64,000 nt of DNA. It comes from a virus. Lineage: Duplodnaviria; Heunggongvirae; Uroviricota; Caudoviricetes. Positions 56,580-60,511 of this stretch are shown here, piece after piece (position 1 is the stretch's first letter; each line of letters opens with the position of its first letter). Position numbers and translations under genes: made by a program. The stretch spans positions 4,002-68,001 of the IMG/VR virus record IMGVR_UViG_3300008108_000037; one strand, written 5' to 3'. A model generated the notes under the pieces. It was not told the DNA's origin. It saw only the letters and a program-made list of their open reading frames with translations, and did no database searches.

Positions 56580-57056
56580 ATGCATTACAAGATTGTTTTC
56601 AAGGTTTCTCCTTTCCAAGATTTTGATAAGGGTTCATTAGTAACCTACAGAGACGAAAATCTTCTTGAATACATTAAAGAAACCCTTTATTCCAAATCAA
56701 ATTTCTTCTATGTTTCTGAGATAGATTGGAAGAGCTATACTTGTGAGGTATCAAATTACATAGATTCTATTAAAACATCTCCAGATCAGCTAATAGAAAT
56801 AGTTGCTTACCTAGAAAAAGTCAACAACGGGAAAATAAAAAAATCTAATACCAAATTAGAAAATATAATAATCCATCAAGATGAAATAGAATCCACGTAT
56901 ATACTGGAAGATCAAAAAATTTCAATTTCGCTGGAAAATTCTTTGATACCCGATGGGTATTTTGATCTGATTAATTCTGTTGTTTCTATCGACAGAAGAT
57001 ACAAAGAATACAAAATAGTTAGATTTAAGGAAAACATAATCTCTGATCTTTTTTGA
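56580..57056 (+). CDS. hypothetical protein
   Basis: ORF track. Confidence 0.7.
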   Translation: MHYKIVFKVSPFQDFDKGSLVTYRDENLLEYIKETLYSKSNFFYVSEIDWKSYTCEVSNYIDSIKTSPDQLIEIVAYLEKVNNGKIKKSNTKLENIIIHQDEIESTYILEDQKISISLENSLIPDGYFDLINSVVSIDRRYKEYKIVRFKENIISDLF

Positions 57057-57117
57057 GATAGATATAAAATAATGCACTTAAAAAATCACCAATTAAAATA
57101 AATATAACAGGAAAAAA

Positions 57118-57363
57118 ATGTCAGAACTTAATAGTCAAAATTTCGATCAAGCTATCTCATCATCAGAAAAATGCATGATAGACTTCTATGCAACCTGGTG
57201 TGGCCCATGTAAAGCAATGAACCCAGTGTTGGAAAGTGCAGAAACTGATTTAGGAGAGGGTAAAATTTACAAGGTTGATGTTGACAAAAATCGTGATCTT
57301 GTTGAGAAGTTTGGAAAGAGCGGGGTTATCCCGAAAGGGCTTATACTTGAATATCTGAATTAA
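57118..57363 (+). CDS. trxA: thioredoxin, internally shortened
   Basis: DFYATWCGPCK; lacks the usual GIRSIPT...G segment. Confidence 0.8.
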   Translation: MSELNSQNFDQAISSSEKCMIDFYATWCGPCKAMNPVLESAETDLGEGKIYKVDVDKNRDLVEKFGKSGVIPKGLILEYLN

Positions 57364-57368
57364 AAATA

Positions 57369-57677
57369 ATGTCGATTAAAAAATACAGAGAATTTATTAA
57401 TGAAAGTGCATCAGAGGAAATAGCTGGGGGAAAATCTTCAGGAATGAGCCTAATTGATATAGCTAAAAAACATTCTTATGATGATTCCAGTGATTCAACT
57501 TCACAAGAAAAGATAGATGACATGTATACCATACTCACTAAACAATTAGAGATAGGAATTTCTGTCGAGCTTGAGCATACAGGTAATGAAGATGTTGCGA
57601 TGGAAATCGCTATGGACCATCTAGAGGAAGATCCACGTTATTATGAAAAGCTTGGAAAAGCAGGTCTAATAGATTAG
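57369..57677 (+). CDS. DUF5661-like putative internal head protein
   Basis: MSIKKYREFINE; GISVELEHT...IAMDHL.EDP.YY.KL. Confidence 0.8.
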   Translation: MSIKKYREFINESASEEIAGGKSSGMSLIDIAKKHSYDDSSDSTSQEKIDDMYTILTKQLEIGISVELEHTGNEDVAMEIAMDHLEEDPRYYEKLGKAGLID

Positions 57678-57773
57678 AAATTCGAGGAAATTCTTCTAAA
57701 CATGCGAAATTTTATTACATTTGCGATATATAACAATCAAAGTTCTTTAAAATATTGGTAATTTGATTTCGAA

Positions 57774-57840
57774 GCGGCAGATTTGGATACTTCAAACTAT
57801 ACAAATAAGCAACGGATTAATTAGGCTTCATGCCCAATCT
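57774..57840 (+). ncRNA. Y-RNA-like hairpin 1 upstream of TROVE
   Basis: GCGGCAGATTTGG-ATACTTCAAACTA...CCAATCT; shares TACTTCAA(A)CTA with hairpin 2. Confidence 0.5.
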
Positions 57841-58034
57841 AAAACGAGCAAATCCCCTCTCGGCTGGGTAATGCTCCTCTGGACGTTAAACGACTGGAGT
57901 AACTAACCGGGTATTTCCTGTAGAAACGGGGGTGTCAGAGACCATAAGGCTGAAGATTCGCTTCCTTAAGGAGCAACCCCAAACTGGGAATTCTCGAAAC
58001 AAAAAACCAAATTTATTTAAGATTATAAACTATC

Positions 58035-58084
58035 CGACGCGGGACAGGGAGTTACTTCAACTACAAACCGAAACAACACTCCCT
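58035..58084 (+). ncRNA. Y-RNA-like hairpin 2 upstream of TROVE
   Basis: GCGGGAC-AGGGAGT-TACTTCAACTA...ACTCCCT; 7-bp perfect stem. Confidence 0.55.
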
Positions 58085-58133
58085 TTCAATATTCTCGGTA
58101 AGTTTCTAAAAGTCTTTATTATTAGACATGTGG

Positions 58134-58163
58134 AAGCTTATCGGAACCCGATAGGCTTTTTTT
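58134..58163 (+). terminator. intrinsic terminator 24 nt upstream of the TROVE start
   Basis: AAGCTTATCGG-AAC-CCGATAGGCTT-TTTTT. Confidence 0.85.
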
Positions 58164-58187
58164 ATTGGGAAAATTAAAAACAAACAT

Positions 58188-59828
58188 ATGTCTAAATTAA
58201 CAGAATACGCAGTAAAGTCAAGATCAGAAGTTAGAAAGCACGAGGAAAAAGTTGTCGAAAATTTCATGGGTGGAAATTCTTACACAATTTCTCCGCTCCA
58301 AACCCTTAAAATAGTGGCAGCAAGTTCTATCTTTGGAGAGCCCCAATATTACAGAGACGGAATTAAGGAGGAGAAGAAAATTAAGAATCATGACTCTCTT
58401 TTGGAATACTCCATATTTTCTGAATTAATCAAAGATAAAAGGACCGCTGCGGACGTTTTTACAGACGCTATTGATAAGGCCTTAGATTATGACTTCAAAG
58501 GAACTTTGGACTTAGCTACGGAGCTAAGAACCACCTTTTACATGAGGTTAAATCCCGCTGTTATTTTTGTAAGAGCATCTATGCATCCAAATAGGATTGA
58601 ATTCAATGAGAATAATCCAGGATACATGAAAAAGGTGGGTAAAGCCATTGCATTAAGACCTGACGATCTAACAAATCAATTTGAATATTTCATGTTCTTA
58701 AATAAGTCCAAGAATAAGCTTAGCTCCCTGGTTAAAAGAACATGGGCAGAAAAACTTGCTGAATATTCAAGATATCAGCTCAACAAATACAAGGGGAAAA
58801 TGCTGATCGACCTGGTAAGGATTTCCCATGCGTGGAGCAACGATATTGACGAGTTAATGAAGACTGGTTCTCTGAAGATCGAAGAGAACGAGAGAACCTG
58901 GGAGAATTTAAAATCCGAGGGTAAATCCTGGAAAGAGATTTTAGAAACTATTGAAATTCCGCACATGGCTCTTTTAAGAAATTTAAGAGGAATTTTCATA
59001 GAGATCGAGGATATCGAGGTGGCTAAGAAAGTGACAGAGAAACTTAAGTCTGGGGTTTTAAATGGGAAACAATTTCCATTCAGGTATTGGTCTGCGTATC
59101 AGGCGATAAAAGATACCGAGACAATAAATCATTCGGGAATTTTGACTGATGCTTTAGAAGAGTGTATGGACATAGCAGTTGATAATATGCCAAAACTAAA
59201 AGGGAAAACCATTTCTCTTTCGGATAACTCCGGATCATCCTGGGGAACCTGCAATTCAGAATATGGAAAAGTGCATGTTGCTGAGATAGCAAATCTTTCA
59301 TCCCTGATCACAGGAAAGAATTCAGACGAGGGTGAAATTGGATTATTCGGTGACGGTCTTTTAGTTGAACCTGTTTCAAAAAGGGACGGTCTTCTTTCTC
59401 AACTTAAAAAAATGAATGCTGTTGAAAAGGAGCACGGAAAACTGGGTGGTGGGACCGAAAATGGTATTTGGCTATTTTTTGATAGAGCTATCAAAAACAA
59501 AATCCACTATGATAATATTTTCATCTATTCAGACATGCAAGCAGGTCATGGTGGTTTATATGGGGTAAATCCTGATGACTATAAGGATTTTATTCATGGG
59601 AAGGGCGGATATGGAAGATATATCGACGTTCTAGCTCTAGCTCAGAAGTACCGAAAGGAAGTTAATCCGAAAGTAAATCTTTTCTCAGTCCAAGTGGCTG
59701 GATATGATAACTCAGTTCTACCTGAAAATCTTTATAGAGGAGCAATCTTAGCTGGATGGACAGGTAAAGAACCGATCTTTGCTAAGGCTTTAATTGACAC
59801 GTGGGATTCGATAGAAAACAATCAATAA
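58188..59828 (+). CDS. Ro60/TROVE-domain RNA-binding protein with vWA domain
   Basis: NFMGG.SY; LR....MRLNP; RPDD; LIDLVRISH; MALLRNLRG; QFPFRY; MIDAS-like DNSGS; SDMQ. Confidence 0.92.
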   Translation: MSKLTEYAVKSRSEVRKHEEKVVENFMGGNSYTISPLQTLKIVAASSIFGEPQYYRDGIKEEKKIKNHDSLLEYSIFSELIKDKRTAADVFTDAIDKALDYDFKGTLDLATELRTTFYMRLNPAVIFVRASMHPNRIEFNENNPGYMKKVGKAIALRPDDLTNQFEYFMFLNKSKNKLSSLVKRTWAEKLAEYSRYQLNKYKGKMLIDLVRISHAWSNDIDELMKTGSLKIEENERTWENLKSEGKSWKEILETIEIPHMALLRNLRGIFIEIEDIEVAKKVTEKLKSGVLNGKQFPFRYWSAYQAIKDTETINHSGILTDALEECMDIAVDNMPKLKGKTISLSDNSGSSWGTCNSEYGKVHVAEIANLSSLITGKNSDEGEIGLFGDGLLVEPVSKRDGLLSQLKKMNAVEKEHGKLGGGTENGIWLFFDRAIKNKIHYDNIFIYSDMQAGHGGLYGVNPDDYKDFIHGKGGYGRYIDVLALAQKYRKEVNPKVNLFSVQVAGYDNSVLPENLYRGAILAGWTGKEPIFAKALIDTWDSIENNQ

Positions 59829-59831
59829 TTT

Positions 59832-59858
59832 AAAGGGATCTTCTGATCCCTTTTCTTT
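59832..59858 (+). terminator. terminator after TROVE
   Basis: AAAGGGATC-TTCT-GATCCCTTT-TCTTT. Confidence 0.75.
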
Positions 59859-59911
59859 GATATATAATAAAACTCCTGAATATCCTTCAGGTAAGAAAAA
59901 TATATACCAAT

Positions 59912-60160
59912 ATGGAAATTAAAAGGTTCAAAGCATTTTTGAATGAAATGAAAAAGGGTTACGGTCAAGATTATTCCCTGGAAGATGTTACAAAGGGAGA
60001 AATCGTTGCTTACAGAGGCACAAGATATTTTGTGATAGATTCTAACGAATACATGCTAGAACTTTCCAAAGATAAAGATGCCGTTCCTGGAGACAGAAAA
60101 AACATGCTCGCAAACAAAAGTATGTTTAGAGAATATGGAGCCATTCCAGATCAAAATTGA
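59912..60160 (+). CDS. putative internal head protein
   Basis: MEIKRFKAFLNE. Confidence 0.75.
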   Translation: MEIKRFKAFLNEMKKGYGQDYSLEDVTKGEIVAYRGTRYFVIDSNEYMLELSKDKDAVPGDRKNMLANKSMFREYGAIPDQN

Positions 60161-60181
60161 TATATAAATAAAAATAAGACG

Positions 60182-60511
60182 ATGAGACATTTAAAATATT
60201 TTAGACCCCTAAACGAAGAAATGGGCCAAGACGAAGTCATTTATGCAGATTCTTGGACCCCAACCCAACATCCAGAAGGTGATTATGATGTTAAGTGGAC
60301 ATCAGAGGTAGGGGAAGAAAAACAAGCGGTATTTTCCGACGTTGGGGGTCCAATTATGGACGACGGGGAATCCGGATATTCAGTTTTTGAAACAATTCCG
60401 GGAACATCCTCAGATGGAAACGAATATTTAGGTGAGGTGGTTTATAAAGAACTTGGCGGAGATGGATCACATGAATTCCAGATAGTTTCTATCATGATCA
60501 AAAACAAGTAA
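60182..60511 (+). CDS. putative internal head protein
   Basis: MRHLKYFRPLNE; GATATATAA box upstream. Confidence 0.75.
   Translation: MRHLKYFRPLNEEMGQDEVIYADSWTPTQHPEGDYDVKWTSEVGEEKQAVFSDVGGPIMDDGESGYSVFETIPGTSSDGNEYLGEVVYKELGGDGSHEFQIVSIMIKNK

What the first reader, a model, noticed from the sequence alone, without database searches (positions are those of the whole stretch)
57716..59828. Phage Ro60/TROVE with upstream Y-RNA-like elements and an attenuator-like terminator
Seen: overlapping host-type (TACATTTG, 57716) and late (GATATATAA, 57725) boxes, then a 450-nt non-coding stretch. It contains two related hairpins, each GCGG(C/GAC)AG-stem-TACTTCAA(A)CTA-...-stem. A strong terminator lies 24 nt before the TROVE start. 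Known: bacterial Ro60 genes are typically flanked by Y RNAs and act in RNA decay/repair. Recalled: GTTACTTC is typical of tRNA-like Yrl elements. Inference: a phage Ro60-Y RNA ribonucleoprotein whose gene is expressed by read-through, possibly autoregulated, and possibly countering RNA-cleaving defences.
Basis: partly seen in the sequence, partly recalled or inferred. Interest (0 to 1): 0.75.

Follow-up and report, generated by a model that had tools for sequence, protein, structure and literature searches.

The report
Phage Ro60 gene with Y-like RNAs
A large uncultured lake phage encodes a homologue of the RNA-binding ring protein Ro60 and, just upstream on the same strand, one long and one short folded RNA sharing a conserved "handle"; this is a known kind of system, but the RNA family is in no RNA catalogue and also occurs inside phage tRNA gene arrays.

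Summary

The protein is a full-length Ro60 homologue by fold and has an intact MIDAS motif.

The two RNA modules share a handle: closing stem, (A/C/U)GCGG, second stem, UUACUUCA loop, then AAUAUUC back to the closing stem. A covariance model of this handle finds 98 copies in 66 related loci. All are on the TROVE strand and upstream of TROVE, with strong covariation.

The same handle forms the stem of the YrlA-type RNA of Bacillus phage G, where it carries a tRNA-like domain. Here the long RNA carries a different ~170-nt domain and the short RNA carries none. Rfam YrlA and tRNA models find nothing in this locus.

A second copy in this genome exactly fills the spacer between tRNA-Tyr and tRNA-Gln. 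Other phages show the same arrangement, so these are discrete, trans-acting RNAs.

In the window's own clade, the short RNA's 3' strand can pair with the terminator's 5' arm. This gives the attenuator idea partial support.

This scan already reported the same family on other DNA (e1-1856671, e1-1930381, e1-5367296, e1-5367306, e1-5322275). Verdict: a new variant of a known kind.

The parts
57716..57733 (+). Promoter-like region: TACATTTG (fits the Bacteroidota -7 type TAnnTTTG, from my own knowledge) overlapping GATATATAA, a recurrent phage box
   Evidence: Sequence. TTTGC(G)ATATATAA is conserved in all 7 close relatives. GATATATAA occurs 14 times against 1.5 expected. Transcription from here is inferred.
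57739..57759 (+). Conserved leader AAAGUUCUUUAAAAUAUUGGU. UAUUGGU can pair with ACCAAAU at about 58008-58014 and so extend the closing helix of the long RNA
   Evidence: Invariant block in A1. Exact GTTCTTTAA is unique in the window. The same element lies about 20 nt before the first handle in distant relatives. The pairing appears in the MFE fold.
57767..57999 (+). Long Y-like RNA. P1 is UUUCGA (57767-57772) with UCGAAA (57994-57999). AGCGG is at 57773-57777. CAG/CUG is at 57778-57780 with 57984-57986. A hairpin carries the AUACUUCAA loop (57781-57806). A structured body of about 170 nt occupies 57807-57983. GGAAUUC is at 57987-57993
   Evidence: RNAalifold on 7 relatives gives 49 pairs, 25 with compensatory changes. 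90.1% of cells are paired against 76.9% in shuffles, the covariation score is 0.454 against 0.215, and slid controls reach at most 0.11. The same architecture occurs in 22 more distant loci. There is no Rfam hit.
58028..58105 (+). Short Y-like RNA (bare handle). P1 is CCGA (58034-58037) with UCGG (58095-58098), plus ACU/AGU. CGCGG is at 58038-58042. P2 is 58043-58052 with 58078-58087. The loop starts UACUUCAA at 58053. AAUAUUC is at 58088-58094
   Evidence: Model R1 scores it 76.2 bits, E 2.6e-17. Across 94 distinct copies, 90.7% of cells are paired against 70% in shuffles, and the covariation score is 0.618 against 0.229.
58095..58144 (+). Candidate anti-terminator: UCGGUAAGUUUCU (58095-58107) can pair with GGAAGCUUAUCGG (58132-58144), the 5' arm of the terminator
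   Evidence: This pairing appears in the MFE fold of the whole region. Its duplex energy is -10.6 kcal/mol against a mean of -3.2 for other 16-mers of the region. It ranks first in the window and in 7 of its close relatives, but not in the wider family.
58132..58163 (+). Intrinsic terminator: a 13-bp stem, a 3-nt loop and a T7 run that ends 24 nt before the ATG
   Evidence: The hairpin is conserved with compensatory changes in relatives. 49 of 64 distinct loci have a strong hairpin plus T-run ending 20-37 nt (median 26) before the TROVE start.
58188..59828 (+). Ro60 (TROVE + vWA) homologue, 546 aa
   Evidence: Pfam TROVE, E 1.2e-9. The AlphaFold model (pLDDT 79) matches phage phiLo Ro60 (9KOP, 9L5Y), Xenopus Ro60 (1YVP), D. 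radiodurans Rsr (2NVO) and human Ro60 over its full length, E 5e-15 to 3e-10. The MIDAS motif D346-N-S348-G-S350 is invariant in 26 homologues. It is 49% identical to Bacillus phage G gp540.
59832..59867 (+). Terminator closing the unit (59832-59853 plus a T-rich tail), followed directly by the next GATATATAA box (59859-59867)

Best explanation
The locus is one transcription unit of a large phage. It runs promoter, long Y-like RNA, short Y-like RNA, intrinsic terminator, Ro60 gene, terminator.

Both RNAs are closed by the same handle. On its 5' strand sits (C/U)GA-N-GCGG, a variant of the CGAA-type motif through which Ro60 proteins recognise Y RNAs. I infer that the phage Ro60 ring binds this handle. 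The RNA bodies would then gate or tether the protein to other factors such as a host 3'-5' exoribonuclease, as shown for Deinococcus Rsr and for Thermus phage phiLo Ro60. Those bodies are the UUACUUCA loop on both RNAs and the ~170-nt domain of the long RNA.

Most transcripts probably stop at the terminator and yield the RNAs. Ro60 mRNA arises by read-through. A further handle RNA in the phage's tRNA array would be released by tRNA end-processing.

Shown here: the protein fold, the RNA structures and their covariation, their strict linkage to TROVE genes and tRNA arrays, and homology of the handle to that of phage G's YrlA.

Inferred: binding, processing, read-through, and the biological target.
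For: - The protein is a Ro60 homologue over its full length with an intact MIDAS motif.
- Model R1 gives 98 hits in 66 related loci (356 kb, both strands searched). All are on the TROVE strand and upstream of the gene, and covariation is strong.
- R1 also finds 5 tandem copies upstream of phage G gp540, and 3-4 copies upstream of a TROVE gene only 29% identical to this one.
- In the whole 497-kb phage G genome, R1 hits lie only beside TROVE and once in the tRNA/tmRNA region.
- Phage G's YrlA (Rfam hit at L009:820-906) is enclosed by exactly this handle: ACCUGA-AGCGG-P2-UUACUUCGA ... tRNA-like domain ... P2'-AAUAAUC-UCAGGU.
- The Rfam YrlA consensus stem (cggCga|AUGCu ... AaAcUuG|ucGccg) has the same layout as UCCGA|AGCGG ... 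AAUAUUC|UCGGA.
- Chen et al. 2014 define GNCGAAN0-1G as the likely Rsr-binding motif, and report Y RNAs upstream of rsr that are processed from one precursor (PMC4201824).
- Thermus phage phiLo has two Yrl RNAs upstream of its Ro60. They bind the protein and host PNPase in vitro (PMC12135203).
- The second copy in this genome (G000:C1:127380-127464, 67.8 bits) fills the spacer between tRNA-Tyr and tRNA-Gln. At least 8 other viral contigs have copies abutting tRNA genes.
- Ten such contigs were checked further. The four that are at least 31% complete by CheckV also encode a TROVE homologue elsewhere.
- 0 of 100 bacterial or archaeal loci carrying the seed pattern are true hits, against 30 of 100 viral loci.
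Against: - There are no expression, processing or binding data for any member of this RNA family.
- Rfam YrlA, Y_RNA and tRNA models give nothing here even at E<=10, and ARAGORN finds no tRNA-like gene in the window. Calling these 'Y RNAs' therefore rests on the handle and on linkage.
- The handle matches the published motif only in part. The leading G is absent, and C is replaced by U in many copies.
- phiLo's experimentally bound Yrl RNAs do not match R1.
- No promoter for Ro60 lies downstream of the terminator, so Ro60 expression depends on an unmeasured read-through.
- RtcB is absent from the available 40% of the genome.
Confidence: 0.75

Rival explanations
1. The upstream structures are only a cis-acting leader of the Ro60 mRNA, an attenuator or autoregulatory operator, and not trans-acting RNAs.
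For: The RNAs and the gene share one promoter. A conserved terminator sits 20-37 nt before the ATG in 49 of 64 loci. In the window's clade the short unit's 3' strand is the best partner in the region for the terminator's 5' arm.
Against: The same handle RNA occurs far from any TROVE gene, inside tRNA arrays. It lies 65 kb away in this genome and abuts tRNA genes in at least 8 other contigs. It also occurs downstream of TROVE in L257 and in 5 tandem copies in phage G. The anti-terminator complementarity is absent from most of the family (median rank 0.41). A cis role can coexist with a trans role.
Confidence: 0.1
2. The handle RNAs work with a partner other than Ro60, for instance as decoys or substrates for tRNA-processing, tRNA-modifying or anticodon-nuclease enzymes. 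Their proximity to TROVE would then reflect only a shared RNA-metabolism island.
For: Many copies sit in tRNA arrays. TROVE genes in many phages lie next to tRNA clusters. No binding data exist.
Against: Placement directly upstream on the same strand holds across TROVE proteins from 23% to 95% identical. The handle has the layout and CGAA-like motif of the Ro60-binding stem of YrlA. Of the ten tRNA-array contigs checked further, the four that are at least 31% complete encode TROVE.
Confidence: 0.12
3. The two modules are a chance resemblance or an inert duplicated sequence.
For: The 8-mer TACWTCAA alone is not enriched in the window.
Against: Full-module scores have E 1e-17 or better. There are 272 compensatory cells across 94 distinct copies, against 88 in shuffles. 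Conservation reaches phage G.
Confidence: 0.01

Closest known systems
Bacillus phage G gp540 (TROVE) and its YrlA-type RNA (Chen et al. 2014, PMC4201824; Rfam RF02553)
   Same: The protein is 49% identical over its full length. The RNA handle is the same: P1, AGCGG, P2, UUACUUC..., AAUAAUC, P1'. There are several handle RNAs upstream of the gene and one in the tRNA region.
   Different: Phage G's YrlA carries T- and D-arm-like elements inside the handle. The window's long RNA instead carries a different ~170-nt domain that no tRNA or YrlA model recognises. Phage G has 5 tandem bare handles and the window has one.
Bacterial Rsr (Ro60) with YrlA/YrlB (Salmonella, M. smegmatis) and D. radiodurans Rsr-Yrn1-PNPase
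   Same: A Ro60 ring protein is encoded next to one long and one short ncRNA on the same strand. The closing stem has an internal loop carrying a CGAA-type motif on the 5' strand.
   Different: There is no tRNA mimicry, and no rtcBA neighbours were found. The handle sequence differs (GA-N-GCGG and a UUACUUCA loop). In the sample tested the family is confined to phages.
Thermus phage phiLo Ro60 with Yrl1/Yrl2 (PMC12135203; PDB 9KOP, 9L5Y)
   Same: It is the best structural match to the protein. A non-coding stretch of about 460 nt with two Y-like RNAs lies directly upstream of the gene.
   Different: The phiLo Yrl RNAs do not match model R1. For phiLo, binding to Ro60 and to host PNPase is shown experimentally; here it is not.
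Intrinsic-terminator attenuators (alternative 2:3 versus 3:4 pairing)
   Same: There is a hairpin plus U-run between leader and gene, and a competing helix that uses the terminator's 5' arm.
   Different: There is no leader peptide and no known ligand. The sensor would be the closing stem of an RNA that is itself a likely protein-binding site. The feature is clade-specific.

Membership tests
Ro60 / TROVE protein family | TROVE domain detectable by profile | tested here: met
   PF05731 at E 1.2e-9 and 38.4 bits, against a cut-off of 23. The match is partial (residues 230-312).
Ro60 / TROVE protein family | HEAT-repeat ring followed by a vWA domain | tested here: met
   The model (pLDDT 79.3) aligns over 512-609 alignment columns (gaps included) to 9KOP, 9L5Y, 1YVP, 2NVO and 9NEN, with probability 1.00.
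Ro60 / TROVE protein family | MIDAS motif DxSxS in the vWA domain | tested here: met
   D346, S348, S350, T423 and D449 are invariant in 26 homologues.
Ro60 / TROVE protein family | Binds Y RNA or misfolded RNA | not testable with these tools
   Needs EMSA or RIP.
Y RNA (functional class: ncRNA partner of Ro60) | Encoded next to Ro60, with 5' and 3' ends forming a closing stem around an internal loop | tested here: met
Y RNA (functional class: ncRNA partner of Ro60) | CGAA-type motif (GNCGAAN0-1G) on the 5' strand | tested here: inconclusive
   The handle has (C/U)GA(A/C/U)GCGG. The window's copies read UUCGAAG and UCCGACG. The leading G is missing, and C and the second A vary.
Y RNA (functional class: ncRNA partner of Ro60) | Physically bound by Ro60 | not testable with these tools
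   No RNA-protein prediction or experiment was available.
YrlA (Rfam RF02553) | Covariance-model match | tested here: not met
   No hit at E<=10 on 57000-60500 or on 57740-58120. The positive control worked: YrlA was found upstream of TROVE in phages Neville, Quantum, CcrColossus and G.
YrlA (Rfam RF02553) | tRNA-like T and D arms | tested here: not met
   ARAGORN finds 0 genes in the window. No tRNA or YrlA hit was found here or in the long RNAs of 15 relatives' loci.
YrlA (Rfam RF02553) | Ro-binding stem module | tested here: met
   The layout matches the consensus stem, and the handle is identical to that of phage G's YrlA.
Intrinsic terminator / attenuator | GC-rich hairpin plus U-run | tested here: met
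   13 bp plus T7. Conserved in position in 49 of 64 loci.
Intrinsic terminator / attenuator | Conserved mutually exclusive anti-terminator | tested here: inconclusive
   It is the top-ranked partner in the window and 7 close relatives, and near the top in L034 and L076. In the family as a whole the median rank is 0.41.

The most novel reading that the evidence does not exclude
The handle RNAs form a phage-only class of Ro60 partner RNAs that phages mass-produce by embedding them in tRNA arrays, where RNase P and 3'-end processing would cut them out. In this clade, the closing stem of the short RNA also senses Ro60 occupancy. Ro60 binding to the 5' strand would free or lock the 3' strand, which competes for the terminator's 5' arm. 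The protein would thereby set its own read-through level. The ~170-nt body of the long RNA would be a new effector-recruiting domain replacing the tRNA mimic.
Probability: 0.2. Interest if true: 0.75.

Novelty: new variant of a known kind. Interest (0 to 1): 0.5.

Why it matters
Ro60-Y RNA particles are conserved from bacteria to humans, yet their function is understood in only a few species. This family offers several things:

- **Natural variants.** There are hundreds of them, all with one sharply defined handle. That handle appears bare, carrying a tRNA mimic (phage G), or carrying a new 170-200-nt domain. This is well suited to separating what binds Ro60 from what recruits effectors.
- **A processing route.** Placement inside tRNA arrays predicts how the RNAs are released and hints at a role in tRNA or RNA turnover during infection.
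- **A cultured model.** Bacillus phage G carries the same handle and infects B. megaterium, so these ideas can be tested at the bench.
- **An annotation gap.** The family is absent from Rfam, so these loci are currently annotated as empty intergenic DNA.

Tried and rejected
- **Rfam and ARAGORN on the locus.** Rfam cmscan at E<=10 gave only noise: mir-454, STnc410 and GadY. ARAGORN found no tRNA or tmRNA in the window.
- **phmmer of the protein against PDB sequences.** Nothing at E<=0.01. A fold search was needed instead.
- **Pairing of GAAG with the loop CUUC (a pseudoknot).** Rejected. The variable third base of GA-N-G does not covary with the variable base of AC-W-UC (inspection).
It is possible in the window, but both strands are nearly invariant. 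In phage G the second G would face an A, so this stays undecided.
- **Sequence-only search with the window's long RNA (nhmmer).** It found only the close clade, about 73% or more protein identity. The wider family had to be found by handle geometry.
- **phiLo Yrl RNAs.** Unrelated to R1.
- **Seed pattern in bacterial genomes.** There were 120 or more matches, but the 100 tested were all chance.
- **RtcB.** Not found in the 132-kb record, which is about 40% complete.
- **Supplementary tables of Chen et al. 2014.** Not held, so I could not see what they listed for phage G.
- **GTTCTTTAA as a general promoter motif.** Rejected. The exact match is unique to this locus.
Full report
**What is in the sequence.** The stretch 57716-59867 reads as one unit.
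- TACATTTG (57716) overlaps GATATATAA (57725).
- A 454-nt stretch without a conserved ORF follows.
- An intrinsic terminator comes next: stem 58132-58160 and T-run to 58163, ending 24 nt before the ATG.
- The 546-codon ORF 58188-59828 follows, then a second terminator at 59832-59853 and the next GATATATAA at 59859.

GATATATAA occurs 14 times in the window against 1.5 expected, so it is a recurrent phage signal. Its timing class is not established. No promoter-like element lies between the first terminator and the ATG, so the ORF must be reached by read-through.

**The protein.**
- Pfam finds a partial TROVE match (E 1.2e-9). Sequence search of the PDB finds nothing.
- An AlphaFold model built on 26 homologues (pLDDT 79) matches Ro60 structures over its whole length. 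These are Thermus phage phiLo Ro60 (9KOP, 9L5Y), Xenopus Ro60 with RNA (1YVP), D. radiodurans Rsr (2NVO) and human Ro60.
- The vWA MIDAS residues (DNSGS at 346-350, T423, D449) are invariant.
- The family is large: more than 3900 homologues at E<=1e-5, mostly from freshwater metagenomes and large contigs.
- The closest cultured relative is Bacillus phage G gp540, 49% identical.
- The window lies in a 132-kb viral record that is about 40% complete.

**The RNAs.** Alignment with six IMG/VR relatives (79-83% protein identity) shows invariant blocks alternating with variable, compensating ones across the whole upstream region.

The long module (57767-57999) is closed by UUUCGA/UCGAAA and has 49 predicted pairs, 25 with compensatory changes. 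90% of cells are paired against 77% in shuffles, and slid controls stay near background.

The short module (58028-58105) has the same base. The shared handle is:
- P1, ending ...YGA;
- (A/C/U)GCGG;
- P2;
- a loop starting UUACUUCA;
- P2';
- AAUAUUC;
- P1' (UCR...).

Single-sequence folds of about 70 independent copies give this same architecture.

A covariance model (R1) finds 98 copies in 66 related loci. All are on the TROVE strand and upstream of the gene. 272 cells show compensatory change against 88 in shuffles, and the covariation score is 0.62 against 0.23. In the 64-kb window R1 hits only this locus.

**Link to known Y RNAs.** As a positive control, Rfam's YrlA model finds sub-threshold but clear hits directly upstream of TROVE in phages Neville, Quantum and CcrColossus. 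It also finds one at L009:820-906 in phage G. It finds nothing in the window or in 15 relatives.

Reading the phage G hit in context shows that its tRNA-like T and D arms sit inside exactly the R1 handle: ACCUGA-AGCGG-UAAAAGCAG-UUACUUCGA ... CUGUUUUA-AAUAAUC-UCAGGU. Phage G also has five tandem bare handles upstream of gp540.

The Rfam YrlA consensus stem has the same layout. That layout is a helix ending CGA, a 5-nt 5' loop A(U)GC, an A-rich 7-nt 3' loop, and a helix starting UCG. It contains the GNCGAAN0-1G motif that Chen et al. 2014 proposed as the Rsr contact.

So the handle is best read as the Ro60-binding module. The window's two RNAs are a long and a short Y-like RNA without tRNA mimicry.

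**The long RNA's body.** In 22 more distant loci, P1 and P2 enclose a roughly 190-nt insert with conserved blocks and covarying helices. The blocks are AGUACUGCUAYAGA, CAGUAGCUCGGUUYAAUUCAC, GACUAGAAAU and GAUUACCUC..UAAGGAGGGACCAC.

The window's clade has a diverged version, with a UAGAAA-loop hairpin and GAUUC-hairpin(CUUAAGG)-CAAC. No known family matches it. One block loosely recalls a D arm, but that is only an impression.

**Trans-acting copies.**
- R1 finds a second copy in this genome, 65 kb from the gene. It fills the 83-nt spacer between tRNA-Tyr and tRNA-Gln in a run of six closely spaced tRNA genes, with its closing stem reaching both tRNA ends. RNase P and tRNA 3'-end processing would release it precisely.
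- A seed-pattern scan of IMG/VR followed by R1 confirmed 45 copies on 30 of 100 loci. Of these 30 loci, 16 or 17 have a TROVE gene (23-82% identical) next to the copies, in all but one case directly downstream on the same strand. At least 8 have copies abutting tRNA genes, for example Val|R1|Asn, Gly|R1|Glu and Tyr|R1-R1|Cys.
- Ten such contigs were searched for TROVE. The four that are at least 31% complete encode it elsewhere; the six without a match are 3-38% complete.
- None of 100 bacterial or archaeal loci carrying the seed pattern is a true hit.

These data rule out a purely cis-acting leader for the family.

**The terminator and the attenuator idea.** A strong hairpin plus T-run ends 20-37 nt before the ATG in 49 of 64 distinct loci. 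In the rest, an ORF separates the RNAs from the gene.

In the window's MFE fold, the 3' strand of the short RNA's closing stem plus its flank (UCGGUAAGUUUCU) pairs with the terminator's 5' arm. This duplex is the best in the region for the window and seven close relatives, even though their terminators differ. It also ranks high in two unrelated loci. Across the whole family it is not better than background.

I therefore treat Ro60-responsive attenuation as plausible for this clade (about 0.35), not as a family property. Its sign is open. Ro60 is reported to contact mainly the 5' strand and to open the Y RNA stem, which would free the anti-terminator strand.

**What it most likely does.** By analogy with Deinococcus Rsr-Y RNA-PNPase and phiLo Ro60-Yrl-PNPase, I propose that the phage makes its own Ro60 RNPs to redirect host RNA decay or surveillance during infection. 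The link to tRNA arrays points to tRNA or other structured RNA as the substrate. This step is inference only.

**Prior notes of this scan.** The same protein family with two upstream Y-like units lacking a tRNA part was already reported on other genomes, with phage G as the closest known (e1-1856671, e1-1930381, e1-5367296, e1-5367306, e1-5322275). I saw these notes only after my own analysis, and they agree with it. A different handle (ACAGCAA), paired with DUF2828 Ro60-like proteins, is reported elsewhere and is not this one.

**Verdict.** This is a new variant of a known kind, of moderate interest.

Noticed in passing
G000:C1:127380-127464 (outside the window; L097:1501-1585): A second handle RNA (67.8 bits) exactly fills the spacer between tRNA-Tyr and tRNA-Gln in a run of six closely spaced tRNA genes (Cys, Asn, Glu, Lys, Tyr, Gln).
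   Followed up: yes
window 57118-57677: The two genes just upstream encode a small thioredoxin (81 aa, PF00085 at E 5e-19) and a DUF5661 protein (102 aa).
   Followed up: no
window, 14 sites (e.g. 16479, 17271, 36882, 59859, 60159, 61457): GATATATAA is about tenfold over-represented and lies mostly on the + strand before ORFs. It is a candidate phage promoter box. Its timing class is unknown.
   Followed up: partly
L102 (phage G 411272-414343): The phage G tRNA region holds a tmRNA gene (tag AKLNITNNELQVA), a tRNA with anticodon UUA (which would read the ochre stop codon), and a sixth handle RNA 140 nt after tRNA-Gly.
   Followed up: partly
L319/L320 and L311 (IMG/VR contigs): Handle RNAs and tRNA genes interleave directly upstream of TROVE (R1|tRNA-Gly|R1|TROVE). 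Two tandem R1 units also sit between tRNA-Tyr and tRNA-Cys. Mixed RNA operons therefore seem common in this phage group.
   Followed up: partly
L257 (IMGVR_UViG_3300045988_154534): Here three handle RNAs lie downstream of the TROVE gene (51% identical) instead of upstream, followed by a tRNA-Leu.
   Followed up: no
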